From a virus: 64,000 nt of DNA. The stretch spans positions 8,784 to 72,783 of the IMG/VR virus record IMGVR_UViG_3300032316_001090. The stretch is one strand, 5' to 3'. Below, one piece after another: positions 37,469 to 52,408 of this stretch. A program made the translations under genes and the position numbers. Position 1 is the stretch's first letter. Each line of letters begins with the position of its first letter. The notes beneath the pieces were generated by a model that saw only the letters and a list, made by a program, of their open reading frames with translations, was not told where the DNA came from and made no database searches.

Positions 37469-38810
37469 TTTAGAATTTAAACAACAGGTGTTGGACTCTG
37501 TGTCCCCAAGTTTTTGTGCAGCGAAATGGTACAATGCTACCATTTGGTTAGGAAGTGGGCAGACCACAAGTTGTCATCACCCGCCAGCTCATTTGATTGA
37601 CATTGATAAAGTCAATAACAACTCTAGGCTGCTGCACAATACTGATCAAAAGAAAGCGGACCGACGCAAGATGTTGGCTGGAGAGCGTCCTGCAGGCTGT
37701 GAATACTGCTGGAAGATTGAAGATATGGACACCAATGCTGTGAGTGACCGTGTGTACAAATCAAAAATTTATCCCATAAAGGCCTTGCATGAAGCAGTCA
37801 ACACCCCCATCCAAGATGATGTCAATCTTAGAACACTGGAAATCAGTTTCGATCGCACCTGTCAATTTGCTTGTTCTTATTGCAATCCTGCTTTCAGTAG
37901 CACTTGGGTTAACGATATACGAAAACATGGACCCTATAACGGGCTGGTCAGCGATGGCAGGAACCATTTTACTCATACTCATGATAGCAGTCAACTTTAT
38001 AAATTCGGTGAAACTAATCCTTACGTGGAAGCCTTCTTTGACTGGTGGGAAAGAGACCTCCACAGAACACTGCAAGAACTCCGAATAACCGGCGGCGAGC
38101 CCTTGATGTCAGGCTATACCTGGAAACTGATAGAGTGGTTCAAAACCAATCAAGGACGTAGTACAACCCGATTGGCTATCAATTCAAACTTGGGCATTGA
38201 CTTGGACAAGATCAAAGAATTTGCTGTGGCAATAGCCACATTGCCCAAGGTAGATCTATATACTTCAATGGAAGCCACCTGGGCGCAGGCTGAATACATT
38301 CGTGACGGGCTAGATTACAATCAATGGCTCGACAATGTGTTGTTTTTGTTACAAGGTCAATTTGTTAGTGCTGTGCATGTGATGTGTACCGTCAATGCCT
38401 TGTGTCTGGACAGTCTTGTGGACCATCTCAATCTGATGTTGAGTTTAAAGCAACGTTATGGTCGCGATCAAGTTAACTTTACATTGAACATCTTGCGCTT
38501 TCCTAGTTTTCAAAGTGCGTTGGTATTGCCGGATGACATTCGAAATCGTTATTGTTTGCAGTTGAAAGCATGGTTGTTCCACAATCGTGAAAACCCTTGC
38601 TTGCATGAACACGAAATAAATCATGTACAACGCCTGATTGATTACCTGGACATAGTAAAAACTCCGCACTCAGAAGCATTTGAATTATCCAAACTATTAA
38701 ATGACTTCCGGCAGTTTTACACACAATACGATCAGCGTAGATCAAAAGATTTTAGCACAGCATTTCCCAATTTGAAAGAATGGTATGACAGCTTACAAAT
38801 ACAACAGTAG
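37461..38810 (+). CDS. radical SAM enzyme, subfamily A (paralog of 34978..36378)
   Basis: CQFACSYCNPAFSSTW (CX3CX2C); ITGGEPLM; same N-terminal C-x18-C-x41-C-x2-C spacing as 34978..36378. Confidence 0.7.
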   Translation: MNDLEFKQQVLDSVSPSFCAAKWYNATIWLGSGQTTSCHHPPAHLIDIDKVNNNSRLLHNTDQKKADRRKMLAGERPAGCEYCWKIEDMDTNAVSDRVYKSKIYPIKALHEAVNTPIQDDVNLRTLEISFDRTCQFACSYCNPAFSSTWVNDIRKHGPYNGLVSDGRNHFTHTHDSSQLYKFGETNPYVEAFFDWWERDLHRTLQELRITGGEPLMSGYTWKLIEWFKTNQGRSTTRLAINSNLGIDLDKIKEFAVAIATLPKVDLYTSMEATWAQAEYIRDGLDYNQWLDNVLFLLQGQFVSAVHVMCTVNALCLDSLVDHLNLMLSLKQRYGRDQVNFTLNILRFPSFQSALVLPDDIRNRYCLQLKAWLFHNRENPCLHEHEINHVQRLIDYLDIVKTPHSEAFELSKLLNDFRQFYTQYDQRRSKDFSTAFPNLKEWYDSLQIQQ

Positions 38811-40047
38811 TGATCTAGTAAGACCCACGGAATTAACCGAACGTGAAGAATTCTTATTGAAAGATTCAAAGACATTCTGCATATATCCCTGGATTCATCT
38901 ACATGCTTACCCCACAGGCGAAGCATACCCTTGTTGTCATGCTGAAATGAAGCCAGGTGTGGTGGGCAACTGTAGAACAAATACACTAGAAGAAATATGG
39001 CAGGATGCACCCATGCAGAAGCTACGTGCAGATATGTTGAGCGAAACACCACATGCTGCCTGTACACGTTGCTATGAGCAGGAAGAATCTGGATTCTTCT
39101 CAGGTCGTCGGTCAGCTAACAAACATCATGGGCATCATATTAAAAAGCTAGAAAAGAACCCATTTGAAATGACTTATTGGGACATTCGTTTCTCAAACCT
39201 ATGCAATTTGAAGTGTCGTTCATGCGGGCATATCTTCAGCAGCCAATGGTATCAGGATCAAGCCAAGCTGGCTGGAGGCGACTGGAAAGAACGCAACACT
39301 GTGTTAAACTATGCAGGGCGCACAGAAACAGACATGTGGACACAACTAGAGCCGCACTTGGATTATGTAGAGCAGATATACTTTGCCGGCGGCGAACCAT
39401 TGTTGATGGAAGAACACTACAATATTTTAGAAGAGCTTGTGAAACGTGGACGGTTTGATGTTAGATTAATATACAACACAAACTTCACGCACACAGACTT
39501 AAAAGGTCGCTCAGTTTTTGAATACTGGAAACAATTCAAAAGTGTGGCAGTGGGTGCCAGTTTGGATGCCATGGGCCGTCCTGCAGAGTATATTAGAAAA
39601 GGCACTACCTGGGCCGACGTGGTAAAGAATCGTCATGACATGATACGCACCTGCCCCCAGGTGGACTTTTATATTTCGCCCACACTCAGCATAATGAATG
39701 CTTGGCACCTGCCAGACTTTCACAGAGAATGGGTGGCCCATGGATTGATTCGCGCTCAGGATCTAAATGTAAATATTCTTCAAGACCCAGCCTATTTCAG
39801 AATAGATATTGCTCCTGCTGACTACAAACAACGACTAGAAGCCAAGTACCGTAAACATCTTGACTGGATCAGTGATAGAGATCCGCTACAACGTGCCACA
39901 CAGGGCTTTGAAAGTGCTATAACGTTTATGAATGCCACAGACAACACCAATCTCATTGATACATTCTGGCGTAAAACACATGAGTTAGATGCCATACGAA
40001 ATGAAAACATCCTGGATGTACTGCCAGAACTAAAGGCTTTAAAATGA
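38785..40047 (+). CDS. radical SAM enzyme, subfamily B
   Basis: CNLKCRSCGHIFSSQW (CX3CX2C); AGGEPLLM; N-terminal C-x17-CC...C-x2-C. Confidence 0.7.
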   Translation: MTAYKYNSSDLVRPTELTEREEFLLKDSKTFCIYPWIHLHAYPTGEAYPCCHAEMKPGVVGNCRTNTLEEIWQDAPMQKLRADMLSETPHAACTRCYEQEESGFFSGRRSANKHHGHHIKKLEKNPFEMTYWDIRFSNLCNLKCRSCGHIFSSQWYQDQAKLAGGDWKERNTVLNYAGRTETDMWTQLEPHLDYVEQIYFAGGEPLLMEEHYNILEELVKRGRFDVRLIYNTNFTHTDLKGRSVFEYWKQFKSVAVGASLDAMGRPAEYIRKGTTWADVVKNRHDMIRTCPQVDFYISPTLSIMNAWHLPDFHREWVAHGLIRAQDLNVNILQDPAYFRIDIAPADYKQRLEAKYRKHLDWISDRDPLQRATQGFESAITFMNATDNTNLIDTFWRKTHELDAIRNENILDVLPELKALK

Positions 40048-41252
40048 ATGTGCCACACGATAAATTTTGCGTATTGCCCTGGGTCAGCCTAGAAGCTTCA
40101 CCCATTGGCACAGTGCGTCCTTGCTGCTTGGCCGACGACGAATTGGTAGATGATGCAGGCCACAAGTTCTCACTGTTGTCAGCTGACTTTGAAAGCATAC
40201 AAAATTCTCGTGCAATGACACAATTGCGTGAAGAGTTCTTGGCAGGTAAAAAACCGCAGACCTGTCGCAAGTGCTGGAATGAAGAACGTGCTGGCCGTAC
40301 AAGCAAACGCATGCACACCCTGGACAGAATGAAGCACATGGGCATCAGCAATGAATGGACCACCGATGCCAAGCCCCTGATGTTCCTAGATCTAAAGCTG
40401 GGCAACATCTGCAATTTAAAATGCCGCATATGCGGCTCATGGTCATCAAGTCAATTTGCCACAGAAGAACTCAATGACATGCCGCCGGATGAGGATAAAA
40501 AGAAATCGTTTCCCTATCAAATGCTGCGAGCCGGAGCCTGGCCCAGAGAAAATCAATCATTTTGGGCAGAAATTGATCAGTGTTTAAATCACATACGCTA
40601 CATTGAATTCACTGGTGGCGAACCATTCATGATTCGAGAACACTTTGCCATGTTACAAGGCATTGTGGATCGTGGTATTGCACATCAGGTAGAGATACAC
40701 TACAACACCAATGGCACACACTATCCTGCAGAAGCAGAATCAATTTGGCGGCATTTTAAAACAGTGGAAGTGGCATTCTCCATAGATGATCTGGGTGCAA
40801 GATTTGAATATCAACGAACCAATGCAGACTGGGCTGTGGTGGAAGACACAATCACAAGTTTTCAATATCTACGAGATCAAATGCCCAACTTGAGACTGCA
40901 ATGTTGTTCAACCGTGAACATATTCAATGTGCGTTACATTGACAAACTGGCCCACTGGATAGCACTGCAACGCTTTGACTTTGTGTACTGGAACATGATG
41001 CATGACGCATGGTATTTTTCCATTGCCACACTACCAGACAGTGCTAAAACGCAAATCACTGATCATTTACGTTCAGCTGACGTGCCCACACAGTATCGTG
41101 AAGAATTTGATCGTATCATTGACTTTATGAATCGTGGTGCCTCATCAGACGGATTTATGTTGCGCATGAAGATTGCAGACTTGGATCGCAAACGCAATCA
41201 AAACTTGCGCACAGTTGAACCTGAACTTGCGGACTTGATTGATTACCAATGA
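40044..41252 (+). CDS. radical SAM enzyme, subfamily B
   Basis: CNLKCRICGSWSSSQF (CX3CX2C); TGGEPFM; N-terminal C-x17-CC-x45-C-x2-C; ATGA overlap. Confidence 0.7.
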   Translation: MNVPHDKFCVLPWVSLEASPIGTVRPCCLADDELVDDAGHKFSLLSADFESIQNSRAMTQLREEFLAGKKPQTCRKCWNEERAGRTSKRMHTLDRMKHMGISNEWTTDAKPLMFLDLKLGNICNLKCRICGSWSSSQFATEELNDMPPDEDKKKSFPYQMLRAGAWPRENQSFWAEIDQCLNHIRYIEFTGGEPFMIREHFAMLQGIVDRGIAHQVEIHYNTNGTHYPAEAESIWRHFKTVEVAFSIDDLGARFEYQRTNADWAVVEDTITSFQYLRDQMPNLRLQCCSTVNIFNVRYIDKLAHWIALQRFDFVYWNMMHDAWYFSIATLPDSAKTQITDHLRSADVPTQYREEFDRIIDFMNRGASSDGFMLRMKIADLDRKRNQNLRTVEPELADLIDYQ

Positions 41253-42526
41253 GTCTTTGCATGGCACCTTGGGTGCATACTTATTTGAGCCCACAAACAG
41301 AACGTCGCATGTGTTGTGCAAGTCGTGAGCCTGCACAAAACTTTGAACAGTACATAGACACAGCCGCTGGCACAGGCCGGTATATCCCCATCACCTTGGA
41401 CGAACACTGGAACTCGCCACACATGATGAGTGTGCGCAGTAGAATGATGGCAGGTGAAACACTGCCTGAGTGTGAAGTGTGCAATGACAAGTTGTTAAAC
41501 ACTGATGTTTACCGCACATATTTTTGGCAGTTGTTCAAACATAAGTATCCTGATATTTGGGAAACTACAGACACCGCGGGTCGCACCACAATGCAGCCTG
41601 TGAGTTGGGATTATAGATTTTCAAATTTGTGCAATTTTAAATGTAGAACCTGCGGTGACATGTTGAGCAGTAGTTGGGAAACAGAACAACGCCAACATGG
41701 AATGACAGATTGGTCAAATCCCAAGAACACCTGGATGAGACCTGAAGTGCGGCGAGAAATTTCTGCATTTCAAGACAGTCAAATTGAACAAGAGTTTGCT
41801 GATGCTGTAGAACAACACCGTGTTGAAGAAGTGTACTGGGTAGGCGGAGAGCCACTTATGTACGAACAACATTGGCGTTATATGAAACGCATAGTTGAAC
41901 TAGGGGATGGACCACGAGTATATGCTAGATACAATACAAATTTATCCAGAGTGGATTATCGGGGTGTTAACTTATATTGTGATATTCTTTCTGGGTTGCG
42001 TGATTGGCAGATATGTGCAAGTCTCGACGGCACAGGCGCAATTGGTGAATACATCAGAACAGGTCTTGACTATGATCGCTGGCTTGAGCATTTTGGTCAA
42101 GCAGTTGAGATCCAACGTCACAGACGTCAAGTCCGAATTGACTTTACGCTCACTTTGCCCGGAATGTTCGAAGTTACACGCATTAGACAACTTGCCGAAA
42201 CATACGGGGTCGACGTCCTTGCCAAAGTGATATTTTCATTCTCTCCAGACATTGTGATGAGTCCATTGGCTTTGCCTAGATCTTTGTTAGAACCTTGGAT
42301 TGATGAACTTGTGCCCCAAGTGGATGGCGCATTACGTGATGTGTTGTTACAACTAAAAACTAGGCCTACTTTTGAAGAACAATGGCCTGATCAGTATGCA
42401 AAAGGTCTTGCAAAAGGCAAGGCACGTGTGTTACAATTAGAAAGCATACGCACACAGAAGATCACCATGACAGAAATACTTGCTGATCGTTCTGCGGTGC
42501 TAGAATGGTGGAACAACATTGCTTGA
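41249..42526 (+). CDS. radical SAM enzyme, subfamily B
   Basis: CNFKCRTCGDMLSSSW (CX3CX2C); VGGEPLM; N-terminal C-x17-CC-x51-C-x2-C; ATGA overlap. Confidence 0.7.
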   Translation: MSLCMAPWVHTYLSPQTERRMCCASREPAQNFEQYIDTAAGTGRYIPITLDEHWNSPHMMSVRSRMMAGETLPECEVCNDKLLNTDVYRTYFWQLFKHKYPDIWETTDTAGRTTMQPVSWDYRFSNLCNFKCRTCGDMLSSSWETEQRQHGMTDWSNPKNTWMRPEVRREISAFQDSQIEQEFADAVEQHRVEEVYWVGGEPLMYEQHWRYMKRIVELGDGPRVYARYNTNLSRVDYRGVNLYCDILSGLRDWQICASLDGTGAIGEYIRTGLDYDRWLEHFGQAVEIQRHRRQVRIDFTLTLPGMFEVTRIRQLAETYGVDVLAKVIFSFSPDIVMSPLALPRSLLEPWIDELVPQVDGALRDVLLQLKTRPTFEEQWPDQYAKGLAKGKARVLQLESIRTQKITMTEILADRSAVLEWWNNIA

Positions 42527-43544
42527 TAGAATTGAAATAGACCTGCGTGGCGCAGACACGCTCACATTGTACATTGATGTCACAGACAACAGTCTCAGTC
42601 GCAAATGGCTGGCTGCACTGAACAATATTTTACGCAGTGATTTGCATTTAGAAAAAAACTATTGTTGGCTAGGATGGACTGAAAGTGCGCGAACAGCAGA
42701 ATATATAATTGAGAGCATCAATGCCAGTATTCAAGCAATAAACACAGCTAATTTAGGGTACACCATTGATGATTATTTTACCGTGGGAGAGACCATACAA
42801 GATAATTTGAATGTCGACCATGATCGTATGAATCAACTGCATCGGTACTTTGAAGACCTACAGGGTCACTCTGGGCACATGAGTGCTTATTGGAGCAAAG
42901 CAGATGCTGCCACACGTTGGCACATACGCCAACTGAACTTGTTGTGTCATGAATATGAGAGTCTTGTGCTCAGCATGCGCAAGGTCATACAAGCACCTGC
43001 CTGGCGCCGACCTAGTCAGTTGATGTGCTGGCTCAATGCACCACGTTTTGCATTGGACACAGAAGATTTTGAACTGTTTGGAATAGACACACTCAACAGA
43101 CAAATGGGTGCAGTGTACGTTGGTGTAAACAAAGCAGTGGGCAAAACACACTGGGAAGTATTCAATGACGAAGGGCGTGATGTGGACGAGTTGGTTACCA
43201 CAGGACTGCGTAATCAAACTGAGGCAGCTGGCGATTTTGATATTGAGTGGGCACGGGATCCAGGTGCATATCCGTGGCAAATACAAAAAATTGCAGAATT
43301 TCGAACATGGTTAGTAGACAATGGATTTGATCCCGAAGATCGGTCGCTGACCATTGGCCATCCCAAGGTAGCGCAAGTTAATTTGTCAAAATCATTTGGC
43401 ACCTTGGACTACAATAAAATTTGGCAACAGATTTCAAATAGATTGGATGTATATAAAATTCGTACCAGTGACGCAGAAGCTACATATGAGTATCGCTGGA
43501 GCGATCGAGATTATGCTGAACAGCAAATAAGGAGATTAACATGA
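42519..43544 (+). CDS. hypothetical protein, 341 aa
   Basis: ORF overlapping the last radical-SAM gene by 8 nt. Confidence 0.5.
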   Translation: MLDRIEIDLRGADTLTLYIDVTDNSLSRKWLAALNNILRSDLHLEKNYCWLGWTESARTAEYIIESINASIQAINTANLGYTIDDYFTVGETIQDNLNVDHDRMNQLHRYFEDLQGHSGHMSAYWSKADAATRWHIRQLNLLCHEYESLVLSMRKVIQAPAWRRPSQLMCWLNAPRFALDTEDFELFGIDTLNRQMGAVYVGVNKAVGKTHWEVFNDEGRDVDELVTTGLRNQTEAAGDFDIEWARDPGAYPWQIQKIAEFRTWLVDNGFDPEDRSLTIGHPKVAQVNLSKSFGTLDYNKIWQQISNRLDVYKIRTSDAEATYEYRWSDRDYAEQQIRRLT

Positions 43545-43642
43545 AATGGTTACGCAGACTTTGGGATAGAATTACTTTGGAAATTCGTTACAGAAAAAAA
43601 CTTAAAGAACTACGCAAACGAGATCCATTTATTTACAAATGA
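43541..43642 (+). CDS. small basic peptide ORF, 33 aa (MKWLRRLWDRITLEIRYRKKLKELRKRDPFIYK)
   Basis: AAGGAG 7 nt upstream, one of the few strong SD sequences in the window; its ATG overlaps the upstream stop (ATGA) and its TGA overlaps the downstream ATG (ATGA). Confidence 0.3.
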   Translation: MKWLRRLWDRITLEIRYRKKLKELRKRDPFIYK

Positions 43643-45120
43643 ATATCTTAGGTATCAGTGCCGGCTTTCATGATGCCGCTGCCTCGGTAATCAATAGCCA
43701 AGGTGACATTGTATTTGCTGGACACAGTGAGCGTTACAGCAAACGCAAAAATGATGCAGACATTCACAAAGACTTGATATGGGACGCATGCAATGTCGGC
43801 GGTATTGATCATGTGGCCTACTACGAAACACCTTGGAAAAAACAACTACGCCAGTGGTACAGCGGTCAAGGCATAGAGTGGAACAAGTTGACCACAAAAC
43901 AAATTCTCGAGCAACAGCTCAAAGGATTTTTTCCAACAGCATCACGCAGTTGCCACAGTCATCATTTAAGCCATGCGGCCGGTGGTTTTCAAACCAGCCC
44001 ATATGACCGTGCCACAGTGGTGGTAATTGATGCCATAGGCGAGTGGGACACAATCACAATCTGGGCAGCAGAATATGACAAAAAAGGATGAGCACAGTAC
44101 AAGCCACTGTGGGCACAACGATATCCTCACAGCCTGGGTCTGTTTTACAGTGCAATTACTAAGCGTGTGGGCCTACACCCACTAGACGAAGAATACATCA
44201 CCATGGGCATGGCAGCATATGGTGATGACCATTACCATGATCTCATGGAAGCAGTATTGATCAGTGATCCCAGCACCGCAGAGTTCAAACAAAACTTACA
44301 TACCGGAGTCAGTGATACCTTCATGGGCGGTCTTGATCATGTGGATATTGCTGCCAGTGCTCAGAGATTGTTAGAACGTTTGATAGGCAACGTCATGCGT
44401 AGGGCCAGAGACTTTGGATGGTCAACAAATCTTGTGTATCAAGGTGGTGTTGCACTCAACTGTTTGGCCAACAGAACTCTAGGAGAATACTTTGACAACA
44501 TCTGGGTCATGCCCTGCCCTGGCGATGCTGGATCAAGTCTTGGAGCCGCTGCTCTTGCTTATGGTCGAAGGTTGCATTGGCACAATGCTTACCTTGGTCA
44601 CAATATCCCTGGCGCTTATCCTGTTGACAATCTTGTTTGCGGTTTACTCCAGGATGGTATTGCGGGAGCGGCCAGTGGCCGTGCTGAGTTTGGTCCCAGA
44701 GCACTAGGAAATCGTAGTCTACTGGCTGACCCACGTAGGCCCAACATAAAAGGTCAAGTAAATGCAATCAAACGCAGACAACAATTCAGACCCTTTGCAC
44801 CAGTTATATTGGTCGAACTGGCTGATCAATATTTTGACATCAAGCCTGGCTGGCATACTCACAGTTATATGCAGTCCGTTGCTCATTGCCGCCAATCTGA
44901 TGTTTACCCTAGTATATGTCATGTTGATGGCACCAGCCGAGTACAAACGGTGACAGCGGATGGATCAGGAATAAGACAATTGTTGGAAGCCTGGTATGCT
45001 GAAACTGGTTGTCCCATGTTGCTCAACACCAGTTTGAACATACGTGGAGAGCCCATGGTCAACGATCGTGCAGATGCTGATCGTTTTGAAATGTTATATG
45101 GTGTAACGGTGTATTCGTGA
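43639..45120 (+). CDS. carbamoyltransferase, NodU/CmcH/TobZ family, interrupted by one in-frame TGA (44089-44091)
   Basis: N-terminus MNILGISAGFHDAAASV...; the continuation after the stop lies in the same frame and carries the family hallmark YPHSLGLFYSAIT and MPCPGDAGSSLGAAALAY; table ORFs 43639..44091 and 44167..45120 are two halves of one gene. Confidence 0.6.
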
Positions 45121-45902
45121 TTAAATCTACAAAAACTCGATACTGCAATGAATTTTGGTACCATAGCAATGATCTAATGATTGGTACCAGCATTGATCGT
45201 TATGGTGAATACAGTCAGTGCGAAATTGATTTTATCCTGAGTTTTTTAACTGATGATGCTGTGGTATATGATGTGGGAGCCAACATAGGATATCATACCA
45301 CAGCATTTGCCACACGGGCCAGACGTGTGTATGCATTTGAACCGCACCCTGGTAACTATGCTTTGTTAGAAAAAAACACTGAAAATTTTGACAATGTGTT
45401 CTTGGGACAGTATGCAGTAAGCAACACTAGATCAACATGCTATATCTCAGATTATGATCCTGATCAGACCAGCAATTTTGGTGCTGTCAGCGTGGTTGGT
45501 AGCACCACAGGAATTCCGGTCCGTGCCATTGATTTAGACACTGCCGGCTTGGAGCCGCCGGACTTTGTCAAGATTGATGCAGAAGGTCACGAATTACAGG
45601 TGCTGCAAGGTTGTCAACAAATCATACAACAATATTGTCCTGTGGTCTACTACGAAGCACATGAAAGCCCAGATCTTAAACAAATATATCTGCTATTAGG
45701 AGATGACAGATATAGATTTTATTGGGCGCAGGTCAACAATTATAATCCTGCTAATTTTGCCGGTAACACTGACAATATTTTTGGCGGGAGTGCATTGATG
45801 AGTATTCTAGCCTGGCCTAGAACGCTAGGAGAGTTGCCAATGACTCCTGTAACAGGGCCCGACGACACTGCCAATAGATTTTATCGGGACGGGCATCCTT
45901 AG
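45117..45902 (+). CDS. FkbM-family methyltransferase
   Basis: VYDVGANIGYHTTAFA...VYAFEPHPGNYALL is the FkbM-domain SAM-binding motif; ATGA overlap with the upstream gene. Confidence 0.6.
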   Translation: MIKSTKTRYCNEFWYHSNDLMIGTSIDRYGEYSQCEIDFILSFLTDDAVVYDVGANIGYHTTAFATRARRVYAFEPHPGNYALLEKNTENFDNVFLGQYAVSNTRSTCYISDYDPDQTSNFGAVSVVGSTTGIPVRAIDLDTAGLEPPDFVKIDAEGHELQVLQGCQQIIQQYCPVVYYEAHESPDLKQIYLLLGDDRYRFYWAQVNNYNPANFAGNTDNIFGGSALMSILAWPRTLGELPMTPVTGPDDTANRFYRDGHP

Positions 45903-46942
45903 AGGTAAGTCTCTAATCCGCCGCGTCTGCGGATGTCTTGTGTACAGCATGAGATGCCACCGTCCCAGAAGTACGAATGACGCAGTTCGCTGATGATAGG
46001 TTCTATCCGATGCCGGCGGCAGTAGTCAAACACTTCTCGATTGTATGCTGAGAATATAACATGTGACTCATCTAACACAAGACAGTTCACATCAAACACA
46101 GTTTCAGCAACAAAGCCAGTCCACTTGGTTAGATAAGTGTCCACAAACTGTGTGAACTCTGCGGTAGGTGTTTGTCCTTGTACATACCAAGCACCCGGTG
46201 ATTGTTCGTACTTGAACTTGCCAACTTCCATAGCTGCCCATATTGAGCTATCCCAAATTTTACAAACGTCCCAACCAGGAAAGTCTCGGGCTAGATCCAA
46301 ATTAACATCGTGCTTGCTACTCAGCAGCACTCCAGGCTTGAGAATAGCAAACACCGCATCGCCGTGCCCGTCTGTGATGGCTTCGTGTATGCGATATTCT
46401 GGTCCCAACACATTGTCCACAATCCAACGAGTTTGATCAGGGCGCAAGAAATCTGAGTTATCAAAGAATACATCACGGCCTACTCGCACAATGCATGACG
46501 CCGACGCACCGTTTAGGATGCAGTTCTCGTCCCAACCAGTAGTACCGTGTGGATTGATCACTGCGCCAGGCTGTGCGGCCGCATATTCAGCGCACAGTGA
46601 ATCAAGCTCTTGCATGGGCAACACACGCAACAATTTATCGCCCAGGGTGATTTGCCAGTCGCGTGGCGTCAGTGGCGGCAGTGCAGCACCTCCTCCTTCG
46701 GTCTGAAACCATACAAATTGATCTTTGTTGGGCAAATCAGGACGCCGCACTTGAGCACCGTATTGTTCAATGGTTCGTTGCAGGTTGTTGAGATCTTCTT
46801 CAGTTTCATGGAGAATCTGTTGCAATTGATTGCGCACCTGTGGATTGTCTATAAAATCAAAGTAGTCAGGTGTGTAGGCCCGTCCCACAATGACTTCTTC
46901 TAGTGGTTGCCACGACGTATATGAATTAACTATATTGCTCAT
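45899..46942 (-). CDS. amidinotransferase-superfamily enzyme (GATM/StrB1-like)
   Basis: C-terminal FWDGGISCCTQDIRRRG resembles the active-site Cys segment of glycine/inosamine-phosphate amidinotransferases; its stop overlaps the FkbM stop convergently (ttag). Confidence 0.45.
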   Translation of the reverse strand: MSNIVNSYTSWQPLEEVIVGRAYTPDYFDFIDNPQVRNQLQQILHETEEDLNNLQRTIEQYGAQVRRPDLPNKDQFVWFQTEGGGAALPPLTPRDWQITLGDKLLRVLPMQELDSLCAEYAAAQPGAVINPHGTTGWDENCILNGASASCIVRVGRDVFFDNSDFLRPDQTRWIVDNVLGPEYRIHEAITDGHGDAVFAILKPGVLLSSKHDVNLDLARDFPGWDVCKIWDSSIWAAMEVGKFKYEQSPGAWYVQGQTPTAEFTQFVDTYLTKWTGFVAETVFDVNCLVLDESHVIFSAYNREVFDYCRRHRIEPIISELRHSYFWDGGISCCTQDIRRRGGLETYL

Positions 46943-48116
46943 GAATTTTCCTGATCAAGCTATTTAAACGATCAGCTTTGTTGGCAACAAATAATCGTTG
47001 GTTGTGTTCCAGCTGTGGCCTGGCAGCTTCAAACAATTCAGACAAATGTGGCCTGGCAGCTTCTATACTGTCACGCAGGCGTTCCCAACGCTGTGTGTGA
47101 TTTGGTATGGTGTCATAACTGTTGTCTAACAAGTCATCAAACACTTGATAGCCCAAGTCACGCAACACTTGCAAACTGCCTGCGCCGCCTGCTACAAAGA
47201 ACAGTTGCCCGTGTTTGATGGGCTTGAATGTTTTTTCTGTGACAAATGCCCCACCTGATTGATCCACATCAAATTGACTTTCCAACACAATTTGACAGTA
47301 GGAGTCTCCATAGTATTTGGGCACCATGACAGCATGATTGTTACGATCAAAATCTGATAACTCGTCACTGACATAAGGTGCTTGTTGTAAAAATTTGGTT
47401 CGATCATATCGCAAGCGACTGATCATATCAACTTCAATGGGACAGTCTGTGTCAGCATCGTAAGGTGCTTCACAGTAACTCCAGTAACTGTTGCTCAGCA
47501 AGCCTGTGCGATGCAAGTCTGCCATGGCAGTGGCACGCCACCATTTGTGCAGTCTGCTCAAACAAGTAAAGTCTCGCTGTCTGGGCTCGCGATGTATCAT
47601 GTAAGGTGTGCTGGTCAAGTTACGCTGATAATACCATAACTCAAAGTCATGAAATGTAACAAAGCCCGGCAACTGATCAGCCGCGGTGTTGGCACTTACA
47701 AAAACATAGCAATCTGGCGGAAGCAAATGGTTTTCTGCTAGACTATCCAATCTGTTTTTGATGCGCCTGGGATTGTCGCCTTCGTGATACATGAATAACA
47801 CACGCAGTTTGTCTTGCCGTAGCTTTTTTCTAACTTCGGGAGACATGAGTTCAAAGTAATCAATTTCAAAGTCAAAGAATCCCAAGCAGATGGGATAGTA
47901 ACTGTTGTCAGGGCAATCAGTGTCTACAGCATAGTTATTGATCACAATGCTGTGTTCACGGCAGTACTCTTCCAAGCGCAGGGGTGTGGTGTAGGGCCAA
48001 TGTTGTCCAAACTCACGCCAGCTTTGCGTGTATGGTCGGCCTTGATGACGAGCCAGGGCTGGGTATATACGCCCTTTGATGGTGCTGTCAACTACAAAAT
48101 TAAACTGTGAATTCAT
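46926..48116 (-). CDS. glycosyltransferase, fucosyltransferase-like TEK-motif family, paralog 2
   Basis: GAFVTEKTFKPIKHGQLFFVAGGAGSLQVLRDLGYQVFDDLLDNSYD is collinear with paralog 3 and with 36353..37468. Confidence 0.45.
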   Translation of the reverse strand: MNSQFNFVVDSTIKGRIYPALARHQGRPYTQSWREFGQHWPYTTPLRLEEYCREHSIVINNYAVDTDCPDNSYYPICLGFFDFEIDYFELMSPEVRKKLRQDKLRVLFMYHEGDNPRRIKNRLDSLAENHLLPPDCYVFVSANTAADQLPGFVTFHDFELWYYQRNLTSTPYMIHREPRQRDFTCLSRLHKWWRATAMADLHRTGLLSNSYWSYCEAPYDADTDCPIEVDMISRLRYDRTKFLQQAPYVSDELSDFDRNNHAVMVPKYYGDSYCQIVLESQFDVDQSGGAFVTEKTFKPIKHGQLFFVAGGAGSLQVLRDLGYQVFDDLLDNSYDTIPNHTQRWERLRDSIEAARPHLSELFEAARPQLEHNQRLFVANKADRLNSLIRKIHEQYS

Positions 48117-49191
48117 CCAACATGCCCATGAGCTCTTGCCATAATATCTTGGTCAGCCCACCGTTGTAGAAGTGATTGAAGTTGTGTTCTACAATTTCAA
48201 CACAGCCCTGGTGTATGCGCTGACGTTCCTCAACGCCTAACTTTTCTAGATGTTTTAGCAGCTGGGTGACCTTTTCTACTCGCACTATGTCATCAGTTTC
48301 CAAGTCATAGCTCTCATCAAACACTGAATCAAATGTGCGGAAACCATATTCTCGCATGTAGGCCAGGCTGCCAGCAGGAGCCACCAACACAAACGGCATT
48401 TCCATGGCAATGGCCTTGAAGGTCTTTTCTGTGATGTGTGTACGGCGTCCAAAGTACACAGTTTCGGTGGGCACGTATACTAGACTGTCGGCAGCCTCAT
48501 CAAAGTTTGTGAGCCAACAACTGGCCATTTGTTGAGTCTCTTCACCGGGAAACAGTTTAGGCAATGGCGCTGCCGCAAACACTTGCTCAATGTCGGGATA
48601 TATGTTATTATACTTACGAGCTATCTTACTGATATCAACACCCTCATAGGTGCAGGTTCTAGGAGCCGATATCCAGTTGTGATCCAGCTCATGTTTGAAT
48701 ACGTTATACAAGAACAACACACGATGATCACGCTTGCCGGCCACAATACGATTGGGACTCATAAAAGTCCGTGTGGGCTGCCGATCTCGTGCTCGCGGAA
48801 TCAAAAAACTCTTGTCGTAGCCTCGAAACCAATCCTGACAGGCCCAACCATGATAAAAATAGTAATGCGGAGTCCAGCCATACACACGACACATTTCTTC
48901 CACATGCTCGCCCCGCTCGCTAACTACTACATGACCAGGCGGTTGAACCCAAATATCATCGTTGCGGCGAATCACATCATCAAACAAAGGCTTGTGCAAG
49001 TCCATGTGAACAGGTTCTTGATCATGCATGAATATATAGTCAATTTCGCGCACATCGTCTCCACCGTAGTTGAACAAACTTTCGGAATCACTGCGCCCCG
49101 GTGGATCACAAAAAAATACTCTAGTACCAGGAACATGTTGCCGAATCCAAGGCCAAAAGGTGTTGTTGTAAATTTCGTCTATTCTAATCAT
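48100..49191 (-). CDS. glycosyltransferase, fucosyltransferase-like TEK-motif family, paralog 3
   Basis: RRTHITEKTFKAIAMEMPFVLVAPAGSLAYMREYGFRTFDSVFDESYD; start codon overlaps the divergent start of 49190..52408 (CATG). Confidence 0.45.
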   Translation of the reverse strand: MIRIDEIYNNTFWPWIRQHVPGTRVFFCDPPGRSDSESLFNYGGDDVREIDYIFMHDQEPVHMDLHKPLFDDVIRRNDDIWVQPPGHVVVSERGEHVEEMCRVYGWTPHYYFYHGWACQDWFRGYDKSFLIPRARDRQPTRTFMSPNRIVAGKRDHRVLFLYNVFKHELDHNWISAPRTCTYEGVDISKIARKYNNIYPDIEQVFAAAPLPKLFPGEETQQMASCWLTNFDEAADSLVYVPTETVYFGRRTHITEKTFKAIAMEMPFVLVAPAGSLAYMREYGFRTFDSVFDESYDLETDDIVRVEKVTQLLKHLEKLGVEERQRIHQGCVEIVEHNFNHFYNGGLTKILWQELMGMLDEFTV

Positions 49192-52100
49192 GTTTGATAT
49201 TTTTTATTCAGGACCTAAGCCTAATTTGTTTGTGCATGAGCGCAAAGTTGACAGTATTGAACATGCACGGCAATTGAGCACCACTAGATACTTTTGGTGG
49301 GTAAATTACTTAGCGGACTACAGTAACTTTGATTTTCTTTGGGAACCTGTGCCCTGGCAGGCCAATCAAATTCATACATGGCCCAGCCAATGGCACGAAT
49401 ATTCAGGAACTTACCTGGTTCCAAAACAACCCACCGATCAATTGAACTTCCACAGTGAGATTGTTCCTAACCAATCTCTAAGAAAAAACTGGCATGTGTT
49501 GCACGCCATAGACGAAACTGGTTGGAATTGGACCTGGGCTCCACATCCATTGGATCCACCTTACATCTATGTGTTCGGTAATCAGTGGTGGCCCGGTGAA
49601 ATCATGCCCACTGTGGAATATCATGTGCCTGGCGCCACAGAACGCAAGTACATGGACATGACTGCAACATTAGTCCAAGACAAAACCAACTGGACCATGC
49701 ATGCATGTGTCAAACAATGGGATTACAGCTGGGTGCCAGATCCTGGATCACCACCGTATGTCTATGTGTGGGGCAATCAACATTGGCCTGGCGAAATCAT
49801 GCCTACTATGACATACACAGTGCCTGGTGCAGTAGAGATCAAATACGTAGATGGTCCACAACCTGAGCTCAGCAGTTGCATGAGTGGCTGGGAGTTTTGC
49901 GAAGATATTGACCACAGTGCCTGGGATTGGACCTGGGTACCAAACCCCAAAGACCCACCTTACATCTATGTGTGGGGCAACCAATGGAATCCACCAGAGT
50001 TCAAAGCCAGCTTGAGATATCATGTGTCCGGCGCAACAGAAATCAAGTACATGGATCGCCGCACACGCCGGTTGCCCAACTACAGCAATCATTGGCGTGT
50101 GCATATCAATGTAGAACAATTTGATTACTCCTGGGAACCCAATCCGTTTGATCCTCCTTACATTTATGTGTTTGGAAATCAATGGAACAGCGCAGTGCTA
50201 GAGCCCACTGTGGCCTATCATGTGCCTGGTGCCACAGAACGCAAGTATGTGGAAGATATTGTGGCCACAGTGGCGCAGAATCCTGCTGCGTTTGAACTGA
50301 TTGATGATGTACTAGAATTTGATTATTCCTGGAGACCCAACCCTACTGATCCGCCTTATGTGTATGTGTTCGGTAATCAATGGCTCACACCTGAACAGCG
50401 GCCAGCATTGCAGTACACCGTTGGTAACGCTACAGAAATCAAGTACATGGATGAGCCAAAGGCACAGCGCAAAGGCGATCCAGAAAAGTTTCAAACATTG
50501 TTTGATTGTGTGTTTGATTGGTCGTGGGAACCAGAACCTGGCAGCCCTCCATACAACTATATGTTTGGTAATCAATGGCATGCTGCCGAAGTCATGCCCA
50601 CTGTGGAATATCGCATGCCGGGTGCCACAGAAGTCAAATACATGGATGAGCCAAAAGCCCAGTTACCTGAGAACCCCAATCGACCTTGGTACAACGTAGT
50701 TGAAAGTGACATGGATTATTCTTGGGTGCCCGACCCAGGCGACCCTCCGTACATTTACGTGTTTGGCAACCAATGGCATGCTGCCGAAATCATGCCCACT
50801 GTGGAATATCGCATGCCCGGTGCCGCAGACCGCAAGTACATGGACTCACCTGTGGCTGAATTACCAGCAGACATGACATTATGGCATGTGCCAGACAATG
50901 TTGATATTCGGGACATGGATTTCTCTTGGGTACCGGATCCTGGATCACCGCCTTACATCTATCAATTTGCTACACAGCATCAAAAAACCGGAGGCCCACA
51001 GTATCGTATGCCAGGTGCAACAGAAATCAAGTATGTGGACATGATGCAAGCCGAAGTCAAAGCTGAATCTGTGCCTGTTGTTGAGATCGATCACTTGGAT
51101 GGCCATGCAGGCAATATTCCCAACACCATTAAGCGTATACGATATTTTGACAACTATCGTGACACATTGATTCGCCTGGCCAAAAGTCTTGTGGGCACAC
51201 ATGAACATGTGTGGGTGTGTAGTTCAATATGCGATTACACTGACTTTGATTTTTCCTGGCACCCAGAAAAGTGGCAAAGCACCATGCTGCATGTGTTCCC
51301 CAGCAACGAACAAAAGTTTGGAGACACATTCTACATGCATGTTCCAACCTTTGCTGAACGTGCAGAAAAGAAACAGTTGTTGGAATGGTACTCGGTAAAC
51401 TATGTGTCTCGGCGCAAGGCACTGCGTAGACCCATGCCTGTGATTGAACACAGTGAGGATAGCCAAGTCAATGTTGTTAAGAACACCAATTGGGCAGGAC
51501 CGCTGGCTACATTTACCACAACAGATTATGTGCCGGGCGATATGGTCACTGTTCCACTGTGGCGTACTGAAACCAAGACCATTACGCCACTCAGCCGAGG
51601 TGCAACCAGTGTGATTGTGCCAAAGTCGGCAGTGGGACACATACGCACACAGTTGTACGATTATCCTTACATAGACAAAACACATCGTTTATTAAAAGAT
51701 GAACCATTAGACATTGTGTTTATCAGCAATGGCGAACCCAATGCCAAGTCTAATTATTTGCAGATGACCGTGTATCTGGCCAACGAGTCAAGGTACACAA
51801 ACCGAGTTCATGTGGTAGAAGGAGTAAATGGACGAGTGGCAGCATATCATGCGGCTGCTAGAGCCAGCACCACACCTTGGTTCTTTGCTGTGTTTGCCAA
51901 GCTAGAAGTAAATCAAATGTTTGATTGGACCTGGCAACCTGATCGTATGCAACAGCCCAAACACTATATTTTCCATGCTGGTAATCCTGTAAATGGATTG
52001 GTGTACGGCCATCAGGCTATGATTGCTTACAACCGACAATTGGTATTAGAGAACACAGGTGTTGGTTTGGATTTTACGCTGGATCAAGCACACGAAGTTG

Positions 52101-52408
52101 TACCTGTCGTCAGTGGCACAGCCATGTATGCCGAAACACCTTGGATGGCCTGGCGCACCGCGTTCCGTGAAGCACTCAAACTACGTGCCAGCTTGCCTGA
52201 CGTGGAAAATGAATATAGACTAAAAGTCTGGTTAAAGGAAGACTCCGGTACCATTGCTAACGGACATTGGAGCTCAAAAGGCGCACAGGATGCAGTGGAG
52301 TATTATGACGCAGTCGGGGGTGACTTTGCAGAACTGCGCAAGAGTTATGACTGGGCTTGGTTGGCCAGCTATGCATTTATGCGTCGCAGTCTAACAACTG
52401 ATCAATAA
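49190..52408 (+). CDS. tandem-repeat protein, 1072 aa (8 x ~67-aa DYSWxPxPxxPPYIYVFGNQW repeats)
   Basis: Long uninterrupted ORF; eight consecutive repeats, near-identical at the nucleotide level; related degenerate modules at the N-terminus (DFDFLWEPVPW) and C-terminus (DFDFSWHPEKW; DWTWQPD). Confidence 0.75.
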   Translation: MFDIFYSGPKPNLFVHERKVDSIEHARQLSTTRYFWWVNYLADYSNFDFLWEPVPWQANQIHTWPSQWHEYSGTYLVPKQPTDQLNFHSEIVPNQSLRKNWHVLHAIDETGWNWTWAPHPLDPPYIYVFGNQWWPGEIMPTVEYHVPGATERKYMDMTATLVQDKTNWTMHACVKQWDYSWVPDPGSPPYVYVWGNQHWPGEIMPTMTYTVPGAVEIKYVDGPQPELSSCMSGWEFCEDIDHSAWDWTWVPNPKDPPYIYVWGNQWNPPEFKASLRYHVSGATEIKYMDRRTRRLPNYSNHWRVHINVEQFDYSWEPNPFDPPYIYVFGNQWNSAVLEPTVAYHVPGATERKYVEDIVATVAQNPAAFELIDDVLEFDYSWRPNPTDPPYVYVFGNQWLTPEQRPALQYTVGNATEIKYMDEPKAQRKGDPEKFQTLFDCVFDWSWEPEPGSPPYNYMFGNQWHAAEVMPTVEYRMPGATEVKYMDEPKAQLPENPNRPWYNVVESDMDYSWVPDPGDPPYIYVFGNQWHAAEIMPTVEYRMPGAADRKYMDSPVAELPADMTLWHVPDNVDIRDMDFSWVPDPGSPPYIYQFATQHQKTGGPQYRMPGATEIKYVDMMQAEVKAESVPVVEIDHLDGHAGNIPNTIKRIRYFDNYRDTLIRLAKSLVGTHEHVWVCSSICDYTDFDFSWHPEKWQSTMLHVFPSNEQKFGDTFYMHVPTFAERAEKKQLLEWYSVNYVSRRKALRRPMPVIEHSEDSQVNVVKNTNWAGPLATFTTTDYVPGDMVTVPLWRTETKTITPLSRGATSVIVPKSAVGHIRTQLYDYPYIDKTHRLLKDEPLDIVFISNGEPNAKSNYLQMTVYLANESRYTNRVHVVEGVNGRVAAYHAAARASTTPWFFAVFAKLEVNQMFDWTWQPDRMQQPKHYIFHAGNPVNGLVYGHQAMIAYNRQLVLENTGVGLDFTLDQAHEVVPVVSGTAMYAETPWMAWRTAFREALKLRASLPDVENEYRLKVWLKEDSGTIANGHWSSKGAQDAVEYYDAVGGDFAELRKSYDWAWLASYAFMRRSLTTDQ
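49517..51020 (+). repeat. coding tandem repeat array, ~200-nt period x 8
   Basis: Recurring ...caatggcatgctgccgaaRtcatgcccactgtggaatatcgcatgccSggtgcc... blocks; protein-level period ~65-70 aa. Confidence 0.8.

What the first reader, a model, noticed from the sequence alone, without database searches (positions are those of the whole stretch)
43639..46942. Tailoring trio (carbamoyltransferase, FkbM methyltransferase, amidinotransferase-like) with convergent overlapping stops
Three group-transfer enzymes are typical of antibiotic and capsule tailoring: O-carbamoylation (TobZ/NodU family), methylation (FkbM family), and amidino transfer (GATM/StrB1-like segment FWDGGISCCTQDIRRRG). The + and - genes end on shared nucleotides 45899-45902 (ttag). 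Amidino and carbamoyl decorations are unusual for phage-encoded glycans.
Basis: partly seen in the sequence, partly recalled or inferred. Interest (0 to 1): 0.65.

Follow-up and report, generated by a model that had tools for sequence, protein, structure and literature searches.

The report
Phage sugar-tailoring genes, one broken
The three enzyme genes are real, but they are part of a much larger sugar-building gene island in a giant freshwater-type phage. The carbamoyltransferase gene carries a premature stop codon in this copy. The amidinotransferase-like gene belongs to a large phage enzyme family that nobody has characterised.

Summary
FkbM methyltransferase (45117-45902, +) is confirmed by HMM. 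The 45899-46942 (-) protein is a true homologue of arginine amidinotransferases (AGAT, StrB1, HsvA, SxtG) by sequence and by predicted fold. The 4-nt "ttag" stop overlap exists. The carbamoyltransferase (43639-45120) has an in-frame TGA at 44089-44091. A 15.5-kb public contig that is otherwise identical has CGA (Arg) there. TGA is an ordinary stop in this window, so this copy is truncated, by mutation or by sequencing error.

The amidinotransferase-like protein keeps the nucleophile Cys332, His193 and both guanidinium-binding Asp (95, 195). The third triad residue (AGAT Asp254) aligns to Ser147, in a column that varies across the family.

The trio is not a conserved unit. Among 80 viral loci with a relative, the carbamoyltransferase is nearby in 3 and FkbM in 4. 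The recurrent partners are arrays of radical SAM enzymes and a family shown here to have a GT-B glycosyltransferase fold.

The window is a jumbo myophage. Its ~25-kb island also holds heptose-activation genes, a dehydratase/epimerase-type SDR enzyme and a DegT aminotransferase. The best reading is a phage glycoconjugate-tailoring island. The target (virion, host envelope or DNA) and the amidino acceptor are unresolved.

The parts
43639..45120 (+). O-carbamoyltransferase of the NodU/CmcH/TobZ/NovN family (493 codons), interrupted by an in-frame stop
   Evidence: Pfam Carbam_trans_N and Carbam_trans_C. PHROG 1601 at 1.5e-70. PDB NovN 1.5e-49, GdmN, TobZ. Intact 493-aa orthologues in L001, L003 and L019.
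44089..44091 (+). Premature TGA (codon 151); CGA (Arg) in near-identical contigs
   Evidence: It is the only mismatch to L001 in 15,529 bases. TGA ends 23 of 49 called ORFs in the window. No tRNA genes in the window.
45117..45902 (+). FkbM-family SAM-dependent methyltransferase; its GTG start overlaps the carbamoyltransferase stop (GTGA)
   Evidence: PF05050 at 8e-19. TIGR01444 at 4.3e-26, 92 bits. PHROG 8156.
45899..45902 (.). Shared 'ttag' where the convergent ORFs end (TAG on +, TAA on -)
45899..46942 (-). Amidinotransferase-like pentein (347 aa). Has Cys332, His193, Asp195 and Asp95. Ser147 stands at the AGAT Asp254 position. Family motif FWDGGxHC.
   Evidence: phmmer against the PDB: AGAT 1.4e-14. 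Profile A1: SxtG 2e-35, AGAT, HsvA, StrB1. AlphaFold pLDDT 87.8. Foldseek: AGAT 6e-21, TM about 0.65. Column counts. No Pfam or NCBIfam hit.
46926..48116 (-). GT-B-fold glycosyltransferase-like paralogue (396 aa); overlaps the amidinotransferase-like start by 17 nt
   Evidence: Paralogue of the 363-aa protein. Fold inferred from the model of that paralogue.
48100..49191 (-). GT-B-fold glycosyltransferase-like protein (363 aa); first gene of the minus-strand operon
36353..37468 (+). Third paralogue of the GT-B-like family (371 aa)
   Evidence: Clusters with the 363-aa and 396-aa proteins.
34972..42526 (+). Array of five radical SAM paralogues with an N-terminal twitch/SPASM domain (34972-36378, 37461-38810, 38785-40047, 40044-41252, 41249-42526)
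   Evidence: NCBIfam NF033640 N_Twi_rSAM at 1e-118 to 1.7e-79 for four of them. Pfam Radical_SAM/SPASM. The fifth is joined to them by blastp clustering.
42519..43544 (+). 341-aa protein of unknown family upstream of the carbamoyltransferase; kept next to it in L019 (60% identity)
   Evidence: No Pfam, PHROG or NCBIfam hit. Synteny.
31876..33070 (+). HldE-like pair: nucleotidyltransferase (31876-32355) and PfkB-family sugar kinase (32309-33070)
   Evidence: PF01467 at 1.2e-15. PHROG 7878 'heptose 7-P kinase/heptose 1-P adenylyltransferase' at 1.7e-43. PF00294 at 1.3e-16.
53213..55217 (-). DegT/DnrJ/EryC1 sugar aminotransferase (53213-54289) overlapping an NAD-dependent epimerase/dehydratase (54243-55217)
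   Evidence: PF01041 at 1.7e-55 and PF01370 at 2.9e-44.
49190..52408 (+). 1072-aa protein with about nine tandem repeats; unknown function; lies inside the island
   Evidence: sequence. No credible family or PDB hit. Conserved in L019.

Best explanation
The window is part of an uncultured jumbo myophage. From about 31.9 kb to 55.2 kb it carries an island that makes and decorates an unusual activated sugar or glycoconjugate.

Shown:
- The family or fold of each enzyme.
- The operon layout.
- The premature stop in the carbamoyltransferase.
- The recurrent linkage of this amidinotransferase-like family with radical SAM arrays and glycosyltransferases in unrelated phages.

Inferred:
- An HldE-like kinase and nucleotidyltransferase activate a (heptose-type) sugar phosphate.
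- An SDR dehydratase/epimerase plus a DegT aminotransferase make an amino-deoxy sugar.
- Three GT-B-fold paralogues transfer sugars.
- Five N-twitch radical SAM enzymes, the FkbM methyltransferase, the O-carbamoyltransferase and the amidinotransferase-like enzyme tailor the product.
- The amidinotransferase-like enzyme most likely uses the covalent mechanism of AGAT and StrB1. Cys332 would attack a guanidinium held by Asp95 and Asp195, His193 would act as acid/base, and the amidino group would pass to an amine, plausibly the DegT-derived amino sugar, giving a guanidino group.
- It lacks the His-orienting Asp of characterised amidinotransferases, so its substrates may differ, and it could even be a hydrolase rather than a transferase.
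- In this assembled copy the carbamoyltransferase is truncated at codon 151 and should be inactive, unless the base is an error.
- The target of the glycan (virion proteins, host envelope or phage DNA) is not determined.
For: - Phage identity: gp6-like baseplate wedge (PHROG 10646 at 3e-277; 33% identity to jumbo phages Atu_ph07, Phosso, XbC2), a gp5-like hub and a 5212-aa ORF.
- Enzyme families.
- Amidinotransferase homology and fold. Conserved Cys332, His193, Asp195 and Asp95.
- GT-B fold of the operon partners.
- Translational coupling: 17-nt and 4-nt overlaps.
- Recurrence in the 94 loci that carry the family (80 viral, 13 from bacterial MAG contigs, and the window itself): radical SAM arrays in 25, the GT-B-like family in 12, the nucleotidyltransferase in 15, the SDR in 13.
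- Campylobacter phage CP220 has five radical SAM genes, a 24.5%-identical amidinotransferase-like gene, two GT-A-like genes and PAP2, directly after its baseplate genes (PMC2853527).
- Cyanophage S-SCSM2R has a 30%-identical homologue next to KdsA and KdsB, and a separate trio of DegT-like, radical SAM and amidinotransferase genes (PMC12801897).
- L019 (80% identity for this protein) keeps the island with cassette swaps, as glycan loci typically do.
- Premature stop.
Against: - No substrate or product is known for any member of this amidinotransferase-like clade.
- AGAT Asp254 aligns to Ser147, and that column varies across the family.
- There is no Pfam or NCBIfam hit.
- In most distant relatives the neighbours are different: an ATE_C-like/DUF6614 cassette, or FolE and QueE-like genes. 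The family may therefore serve several pathways.
- The radical SAM enzymes of CP220 are not detectably homologous to those in the window.
- No lipid-carrier, flippase or polymerase genes were found in the window, so an envelope polysaccharide route is not shown.
Confidence: 0.6

Rival explanations
1. The island hypermodifies phage DNA. The GT-B enzymes glycosylate a modified base, as T4 alpha- and beta-glucosyltransferases do. The amidino, carbamoyl and methyl enzymes decorate the DNA-bound sugar or base, protecting the genome from host nucleases.
Confidence: 0.2
2. The genes make a diffusible small molecule: an aminoglycoside- or aminocyclitol-like compound, or another guanidino metabolite. 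The amidinotransferase would play the StrB1 role, the carbamoyltransferase the TobZ role, DegT the StsC/BtrS role, and a radical SAM enzyme the BtrN role.
For: The closest characterised homologues of four of the enzymes work in antibiotic pathways: StrB1 and SxtG, TobZ/NovN/GdmN, FkbM, DegT/StrS. The authors of the S-SCSM2R paper read their homologues as 'antibiotic synthesis genes' (PMC12801897).
Against: There is no inositol-phosphate synthase or 2-deoxy-scyllo-inosose synthase, and no resistance or export genes in the window. The radical SAM enzymes are the N-twitch type (NF033640), not BtrN-like, and have no PDB relatives. Three glycosyltransferase paralogues and paralogue arrays that swap between strains fit surface or DNA glycan diversification better. 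A lytic jumbo phage has little time to benefit from an antibiotic.
Confidence: 0.08
3. The amidinotransferase-like gene acts independently of its neighbours. It could be a stand-alone auxiliary metabolic gene that reroutes host arginine (to guanidinoacetate or homoarginine, or by deimination). Alternatively, it could modify proteins or virions. Its proximity to the carbamoyltransferase and FkbM would be incidental.
For: The family occurs in at least 579 IMG/VR stretches with very varied neighbours. Several phages carry two or three paralogues. The S-SCSM2R homologue was detected in purified virions (PMC12801897). The trio is rarely conserved.
Against: In the window the gene is translationally coupled to a GT-B-like gene (17-nt overlap). 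Linkage to radical SAM arrays and glycosyltransferases recurs across very distant phages.
Confidence: 0.12

Closest known systems
L-arginine:glycine amidinotransferase (AGAT/GATM, PDB 1JDW) and relatives StrB1 (1BWD), HsvA (5WPI), SxtG (6U1R)
   Same: Same pentein fold (Foldseek E 6e-21 to 1e-20, TM about 0.65). Profile E 2e-35 to 5e-32. Same N-terminal 'SYxxWxPLEEVIVG' motif and C-terminal 'GGxxCxTxDxRRRGxLxxYL' motif. Conserved nucleophile Cys332 (= C407), His193 (= H303), Asp195 (= D305) and Asp95 (= D170).
   Different: Identity is only about 20%. There is no Pfam or NCBIfam hit. AGAT Asp254 is Ser147 here, in a variable column. The residue before the Cys is Ser, not His, in this clade. 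There is a family-specific invariant F325/C332 and nearly invariant W326/D327 ('FWDGG') and an insertion of about 45 residues (positions about 232-278) that does not align to AGAT. The AGAT module at about 195-250 is absent. The gene is phage-encoded and sits in an operon with GT-B-like genes. Substrates are unknown.
Radical SAM + 'glycine amidinotransferase' module of Campylobacter phages CP220 and CPt10 (Timms et al. 2010, PMC2853527)
   Same: A myophage island placed right after the baseplate genes. It contains about five radical SAM genes, one amidinotransferase-like pentein and glycosyltransferases. That paper describes it as an interchangeable module, and cassette swapping is seen here between the window and L019.
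   Different: The CP220 pentein is only 24.5% identical (E 6e-4). Its radical SAM enzymes are not detectably homologous to the window's N-twitch type. Its glycosyltransferases are GT-A-like. It has no carbamoyltransferase or FkbM. No function is known there either.
O-carbamoyltransferases TobZ, NovN and GdmN, and cyanophage 'Nol-like carbamoyltransferases' (PHROG 1601)
   Same: Two-domain Kae1-like plus YrdC-like architecture (Pfam N and C domains). HxxxH metal motif 'HHLSH'. E 1e-49 to 1e-35 against solved members. Common in phages: 136 records.
   Different: Shorter (493 aa against 570-700). Interrupted by TGA at codon 151 in this window. Acceptor unknown.
Phage DNA-glycan hypermodification clusters (Pyle et al., bioRxiv 10.1101/2023.12.21.572611)
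   Same: Kinase plus cytidylyltransferase plus GT-B glycosyltransferase, near structural genes. Heptose chemistry.
   Different: No 5mC methyltransferase/TET or hydroxymethylase is seen in the window. The word search of that paper found no mention of amidino or carbamoyl groups or of radical SAM enzymes.

Membership tests
Amidinotransferase family (AGAT/StrB1) within the pentein (guanidino-group-modifying enzyme) superfamily | Five-fold pseudo-symmetric beta/alpha-propeller (pentein) fold | tested here: met
   AlphaFold model with pLDDT 87.8. The top seven Foldseek PDB hits are amidinotransferases at E about 1e-20; ADI, DDAH and AgDI follow at about 1e-10.
Amidinotransferase family (AGAT/StrB1) within the pentein (guanidino-group-modifying enzyme) superfamily | C-terminal nucleophilic Cys (AGAT C407) that forms the covalent amidino-enzyme | tested here: met
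   Cys332 aligns to C407 and is invariant in 48/48 family members.
Amidinotransferase family (AGAT/StrB1) within the pentein (guanidino-group-modifying enzyme) superfamily | Catalytic His (AGAT H303) and the adjacent guanidinium-binding Asp (D305) | tested here: met
   'GHGDAVF' aligns to 'MHIDATF'. His193 is present in 47/48 and Asp195 in 48/48.
Amidinotransferase family (AGAT/StrB1) within the pentein (guanidino-group-modifying enzyme) superfamily | Third triad residue Asp (AGAT D254, 'FDAADF') that orients the His | tested here: not met
   The profile alignment, with high posterior probability, puts D254 on Ser147. That column holds S9, D7, N6, A5, E3, P3 and others.
Amidinotransferase family (AGAT/StrB1) within the pentein (guanidino-group-modifying enzyme) superfamily | Second guanidinium-binding Asp (AGAT D170, 'PRD') | tested here: met
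   'TPRDW' has Asp95, present in 47/48.
Amidinotransferase family (AGAT/StrB1) within the pentein (guanidino-group-modifying enzyme) superfamily | Residues that bind the alpha-carboxylate and alpha-amino groups of L-arginine (AGAT R322, S355) | tested here: inconclusive
   The R322 region aligns to 'SSKHD' with no conserved Arg. The S355 region lies in a segment HMMER left unaligned.
Amidinotransferase family (AGAT/StrB1) within the pentein (guanidino-group-modifying enzyme) superfamily | Reaches curated family HMM thresholds (Pfam PF02274; NCBIfam) | tested here: not met
   No Pfam or NCBIfam family at E <= 0.01. Only PHROG 25854, 'unknown function', at 1e-11.
Amidinotransferase family (AGAT/StrB1) within the pentein (guanidino-group-modifying enzyme) superfamily | Amidino transfer from arginine to an amine acceptor (enzyme activity) | not testable with these tools
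   Needs an enzyme assay.
NodU/CmcH/TobZ O-carbamoyltransferases | Kae1-like N-domain plus YrdC-like C-domain above Pfam thresholds | tested here: met
   PF02543 (44.8 and 52.2 bits against 24) and PF16861 (159 bits against 27). PDB NovN at 1.5e-49.
NodU/CmcH/TobZ O-carbamoyltransferases | Uninterrupted reading frame that encodes both domains | tested here: not met
   In-frame TGA at 44089-44091. The frame is intact in L001, L003 and L019.
FkbM-family methyltransferases | FkbM domain HMM above threshold | tested here: met
   TIGR01444 at 92.1 bits (cutoff 37.7) and PF05050 at 68.8 bits (cutoff 22.7).
GT-B glycosyltransferases (for the 363/396/371-aa paralogues) | Two Rossmann-like domains (GT-B fold) | tested here: met
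GT-B glycosyltransferases (for the 363/396/371-aa paralogues) | Sequence membership in a CAZy or Pfam GT family | tested here: not met
   No Pfam, PHROG, NCBIfam or PDB sequence hit.

The most novel reading that the evidence does not exclude
The FWDGGxHC pentein family may be a phage-specific amidinotransferase lineage. Together with radical SAM arrays and divergent GT-B enzymes, it would build guanidino-bearing (and here also carbamoylated and methylated) sugars on phage DNA or virion proteins. That would be a previously undescribed chemical class of phage hypermodification, widespread in aquatic myophages and jumbo phages and in Campylobacter phages.
Probability: 0.2. Interest if true: 0.8.

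Novelty: new variant of a known kind. Interest (0 to 1): 0.45.

Why it matters
The carbamoyltransferase and FkbM genes are routine.

The amidinotransferase-like gene is not. It belongs to a very large family: 3,683 database proteins at E <= 1e-3, at least 579 IMG/VR stretches and 691 clusters at 50% identity. The family is almost entirely viral or metagenomic and has no curated model and no known substrate.

It recurs next to arrays of radical SAM enzymes and glycosyltransferases in phages as distant as Campylobacter phage CP220, where the pairing was noted in 2010 and, as far as I found, never explained.

Identifying its acceptor would show what these variable islands next to the tail and baseplate genes make. 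It could also reveal a new guanidino modification of a phage glycan or of phage DNA, with consequences for host recognition or for evading host defences.

Tried and rejected
- Stop-codon recoding, selenocysteine or readthrough at the TGA: rejected. TGA ends 23 of 49 ORFs in the window, there are no tRNA genes, and relatives encode Arg (CGA) at that codon.
- Independent occurrences of the TGA allele: none found. The exact 150-aa product is not on record, and a 29-nt pattern scan of JGI metagenomes found neither allele. A real variant cannot be told from an error.
- Megablast of the region against 50,697 phage records: no match.
- A functional bidirectional terminator at the convergent junction: only a weak hairpin at 45916-45934, inside the amidinotransferase-like coding sequence. 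Terminator-like sites are not enriched (9 found against 6.9 expected).
- The trio as a conserved cassette: rejected by the neighbourhood census.
- A 7-deazaguanine link for this window: FolE, QueE-like and PRT genes flank some distant relatives, but none is in the window.
- Sequence searches gave nothing for the 396-aa and 363-aa proteins, a radical SAM paralogue and the C-terminal half of the 1072-aa protein against the PDB.
The afdb50 fold library was unavailable.
- I could not inspect model coordinates, so I could not look for a substitute for Asp254.


Full report
**What is in the sequence**

The ORF list shows, on the plus strand:
- 43639-44091 (150 aa)
- 44167-45120 (317 aa)
- 45117-45902 (261 aa)

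On the minus strand it shows:
- 45899-46942 (347 aa)
- 46926-48116 (396 aa)
- 48100-49191 (363 aa)

The first two plus-strand ORFs are in the same frame. Translating 43639-45120 gives one 493-codon carbamoyltransferase with a single internal TGA at 44089-44091 ('...EYDKKG*AQYKPLWAQRYPHSLG...').

The peptide FWDGGISCCTQDIRRRG lies at the C-terminus of the minus-strand protein.

**The premature stop**

Three public contigs carry exactly the same 347-aa protein. L001 (ENA, 15.5 kb held of a 19.6-kb contig) matches the window at 15,528 of 15,529 bases. The only difference is C instead of T at 44089, which gives CGA (Arg). L003 (99.3% identical) also has CGA. In both contigs the gene was called as an intact 493-aa protein. 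The more distant relative L019 has an intact orthologue too (70% identity over residues 1-493).

TGA is the commonest stop codon of the window's ORFs (23 of 49), and many genes overlap through ATGA. No tRNA gene is present. The TGA is therefore a genuine premature stop or a base error, not recoding.

The truncation falls after the HxxxH metal motif but before the 'YPHSLG' segment and the whole YrdC-like domain. A full-length enzyme cannot be made from this copy as assembled. I found no second occurrence of the T allele, so a real variant and an error cannot be told apart.

**Family assignments**

- Carbamoyltransferase: Pfam Carbam_trans_N and Carbam_trans_C, both above threshold. PHROG 1601 'Nol-like carbamoyltransferase' at 1.5e-70. 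Solved relatives are NovN at 1.5e-49, GdmN and TobZ.
- Methyltransferase: Pfam FkbM domain at 8e-19 and TIGR01444 at 92 bits against a cutoff of 37.7.
- The 347-aa protein has no Pfam or NCBIfam hit. phmmer against the PDB finds only amidinotransferases: AGAT at 1.4e-14, then StrB1, HsvA and SxtG.
- A profile of 48 diverse relatives raises these to 2e-35 to 5e-32.
- An AlphaFold model built on that alignment is confident (pLDDT 87.8, pTM 0.89). Its best structural matches are the same four enzymes (E about 1e-20, TM about 0.65). Arginine deiminase, DDAH and agmatine deiminase follow about ten orders of magnitude behind.

**The catalytic-triad test**

The residue roles in human AGAT are taken from established knowledge (Humm et al. 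1997, recalled, not re-read). The profile alignment and the column counts give:

| AGAT residue | Role | Here | Conservation in 48 relatives |
|---|---|---|---|
| C407 | Nucleophile | Cys332 | 48/48 |
| H303 | Acid/base | His193 | 47/48 |
| D305 | Binds guanidinium | Asp195 | 48/48 |
| D170 | Binds guanidinium | Asp95 | 47/48 |
| D254 | Orients the His | Ser147 | Variable (S, D, N, A, E, P) |

- AGAT's 'FDAADFIRAGRD' aligns with high posterior probability to 'ASASCIVRVGRD'. That places D254 on Ser147.
- The residue before the nucleophile is Ser here, where most relatives and AGAT have His.
- The family has its own 'FWDGG' motif (Phe325 invariant; Trp326 and Asp327 nearly so) and an insertion of about 45 residues that does not align to AGAT.
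The chemistry-bearing Cys and His and the guanidinium clamp are present. The classical triad Asp is not.
- I could not inspect coordinates to see whether another acidic residue takes its place.

**What the window is**

PHROG hits identify a gp6-like baseplate wedge (3e-277), a gp5-like hub and virion proteins. The wedge protein is about 33% identical to those of jumbo myophages: Sinorhizobium phage Phosso, Agrobacterium phage Atu_ph07, Xanthomonas phage XbC2 and the Yersinia fHe-Yen9 phages. A 5212-aa ORF follows it. No phage record is similar at the nucleotide level. Relatives of the island's proteins sit on metagenomic contigs of up to about 350 kb.

**The island**

Between the tail genes and ThyX lie the following genes.
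- Sugar activation and amination:
  - a nucleotidyltransferase (PF01467; PHROG 7878 'heptose 7-P kinase/heptose 1-P adenylyltransferase' at 1.7e-43)
  - an overlapping PfkB sugar kinase
  - on the far side, an overlapping SDR epimerase/dehydratase and DegT aminotransferase pair
- Radical SAM array: five paralogues with an N-terminal twitch domain (NF033640 at up to 1e-118).
- Unknown proteins, then the 33-aa ORF, the carbamoyltransferase and FkbM at the end of the plus-strand operon.
- The convergent minus-strand operon: 363-aa, then 396-aa, then the amidinotransferase-like gene.
- A 1072-aa repeat protein.

The 363-aa, 396-aa and 371-aa (36353-37468) proteins are paralogues. They belong to a family of more than 4,600 'hypothetical' proteins.

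The amidinotransferase-like gene is therefore the last gene of an operon with two glycosyltransferase-like genes, and it overlaps the second by 17 nt.

**Is the trio a unit?**

The amidinotransferase-like family is very common in viral contigs. At least 579 IMG/VR stretches encode the FWDGGxHC motif and a confirmed relative. It forms 691 clusters at 50% identity.

In the 80 best viral loci (with up to 10 kb of flank on each side), tblastn with the window's proteins finds:
- the carbamoyltransferase in 3
- FkbM in 4
- the N-twitch radical SAM family in 11
- the GT-B-like family in about 10

De novo clustering of all ORFs from 94 loci gives different leading partners:
- a small DUF6875-like protein (36 loci)
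- an ATE_C-like protein (31)
- radical SAM paralogues (25, often in arrays of 3-8)
- DUF6614 (22)
- the nucleotidyltransferase (15)
- the SDR (13)
- the GT-B-like family (12)
- FolE and QueE-like genes (11 each)

The closest distinct relative, L019 (80% identity), keeps ThyX, SDR, DegT, the repeat protein, the 363-aa GT-B-like gene, the amidinotransferase-like gene, the carbamoyltransferase, the 341-aa protein and the radical SAM array. It lacks FkbM and the 396-aa paralogue, and it has an extra amidinotransferase-like paralogue and an extra radical SAM gene.

The trio is thus a local juxtaposition inside a larger island with swappable cassettes. Some carbamoyltransferase/amidinotransferase linkage does recur: L017, L090, and the 7.9-kb marine virus contig MH319727, which also carries an N-twitch radical SAM gene.

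**Precedent**

- Timms et al. 2010 (PMC2853527) described an interchangeable module in Campylobacter phages CP220 and CPt10. It has five radical SAM genes and a putative glycine amidinotransferase.
- The CP220 protein is a distant homologue of the one here (24.5% identity over 96% of the query, E 6e-4).
- Its module lies directly after the gp5-like and PAAR baseplate genes. It also contains two nucleotide-diphospho-sugar transferase genes and a PAP2 phosphatase.
- The CP220 radical SAM enzymes are not detectably homologous to the window's. What is conserved is the architecture, not the individual genes.
- Cyanophage S-SCSM2R has a 30%-identical homologue beside KdsA and KdsB. That protein was detected in purified virions. 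The phage also has a separate trio of DegT-like, radical SAM and amidinotransferase genes.
- Phage carbamoyltransferases are common: 136 phage records, mostly cyanophages.

**Interpretation**

The most economical reading is a phage-encoded pathway that activates a sugar, aminates it, transfers it with GT-B enzymes, and tailors it by radical SAM chemistry, methylation, carbamoylation and amidino transfer. The amidinotransferase-like enzyme would work through a Cys332 thiouronium intermediate, as AGAT and StrB1 do.

Which macromolecule is decorated is open. Virion proteins or host envelope glycans are my first choice. DNA glycan hypermodification is a serious rival because of three observations:
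- the T4 glucosyltransferase matches;
- the reconstituted kinase/cytidylyltransferase/GT-B cluster that puts heptose on 5hmC;
- the adjacency of ThyX.

A diffusible aminoglycoside-like product, or an independent metabolic role for the pentein, is less likely.

**Verdict**

The family calls are right. The 'trio' framing and the stop overlap carry little meaning. The interesting element is the uncharacterised, phage-wide amidinotransferase-like family and its repeated association with radical SAM arrays and glycosyltransferases.

Noticed in passing
window 10849-26487 (+): A single 5212-aa ORF lies immediately after the gp6-like baseplate wedge gene. It is presumably a giant fibre or structural protein.
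   Followed up: no
window 49190-52408 (+): A 1072-aa protein has about nine tandem repeats of about 75 aa (W.W.P.P.DPPYIYVFGNQW...VPGA.E.KY) and a conserved C-terminal half. It has no credible Pfam, PHROG or PDB hit. It sits inside the sugar island and is conserved in L019.
   Followed up: partly
window 34972-42526 (+); L010, L013, L015, L087: Tandem arrays of N-twitch radical SAM paralogues (NF033640): five in the window, six to nine per locus in Pseudobdellovibrionaceae MAG contigs and in one viral contig, each surrounding an amidinotransferase-like gene. The family has no solved or characterised member.
   Followed up: partly
L006, L026, L029, L032, L041, L053, L056, L063, L081 and others: In distant relatives the commonest context is a four-gene cassette: a DUF6875-like small protein, an ATE_C-like (arginyl-tRNA-protein-transferase-like) protein, the amidinotransferase-like gene, and DUF6614. 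The cassette is absent from the window.
   Followed up: partly
L027, L028, L038, L044, L050, L078-L080, L086: About eleven relatives lie among GTP cyclohydrolase I, a QueE-like radical SAM gene and a phosphoribosyltransferase. This suggests that some family members act in a 7-deazapurine-type pathway.
   Followed up: no
window 43541-43642 (+): A 33-aa, highly basic ORF (MKWLRRLWDRITLEIRYRKKLKELRKRDPFIYK) bridges the 341-aa gene and the carbamoyltransferase through ATGA overlaps. It was called as a gene in L001 and L003.
   Followed up: no
window 45916-45934: The hairpin ATCCGCCGCGTCTGCGGAT lies 14 nt after the FkbM stop. It is formed by the codons for the conserved RRRGG of the opposite-strand gene. 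It could act as a weak terminator for the plus-strand operon.
   Followed up: no
window 56524-57210 (-), 60829-62151 (-), 62889-63980 (-): ThyX, a DUF2201 metallopeptidase/VWA protein and a MoxR/CobS-like ATPase follow the island. ThyX also sits between the amidinotransferase-like and carbamoyltransferase genes in L017.
   Followed up: no
L019 5033-6052 and 10001-11023; L029; L066; L098: Several phages carry two or three divergent amidinotransferase-like paralogues within 10 kb.
   Followed up: no
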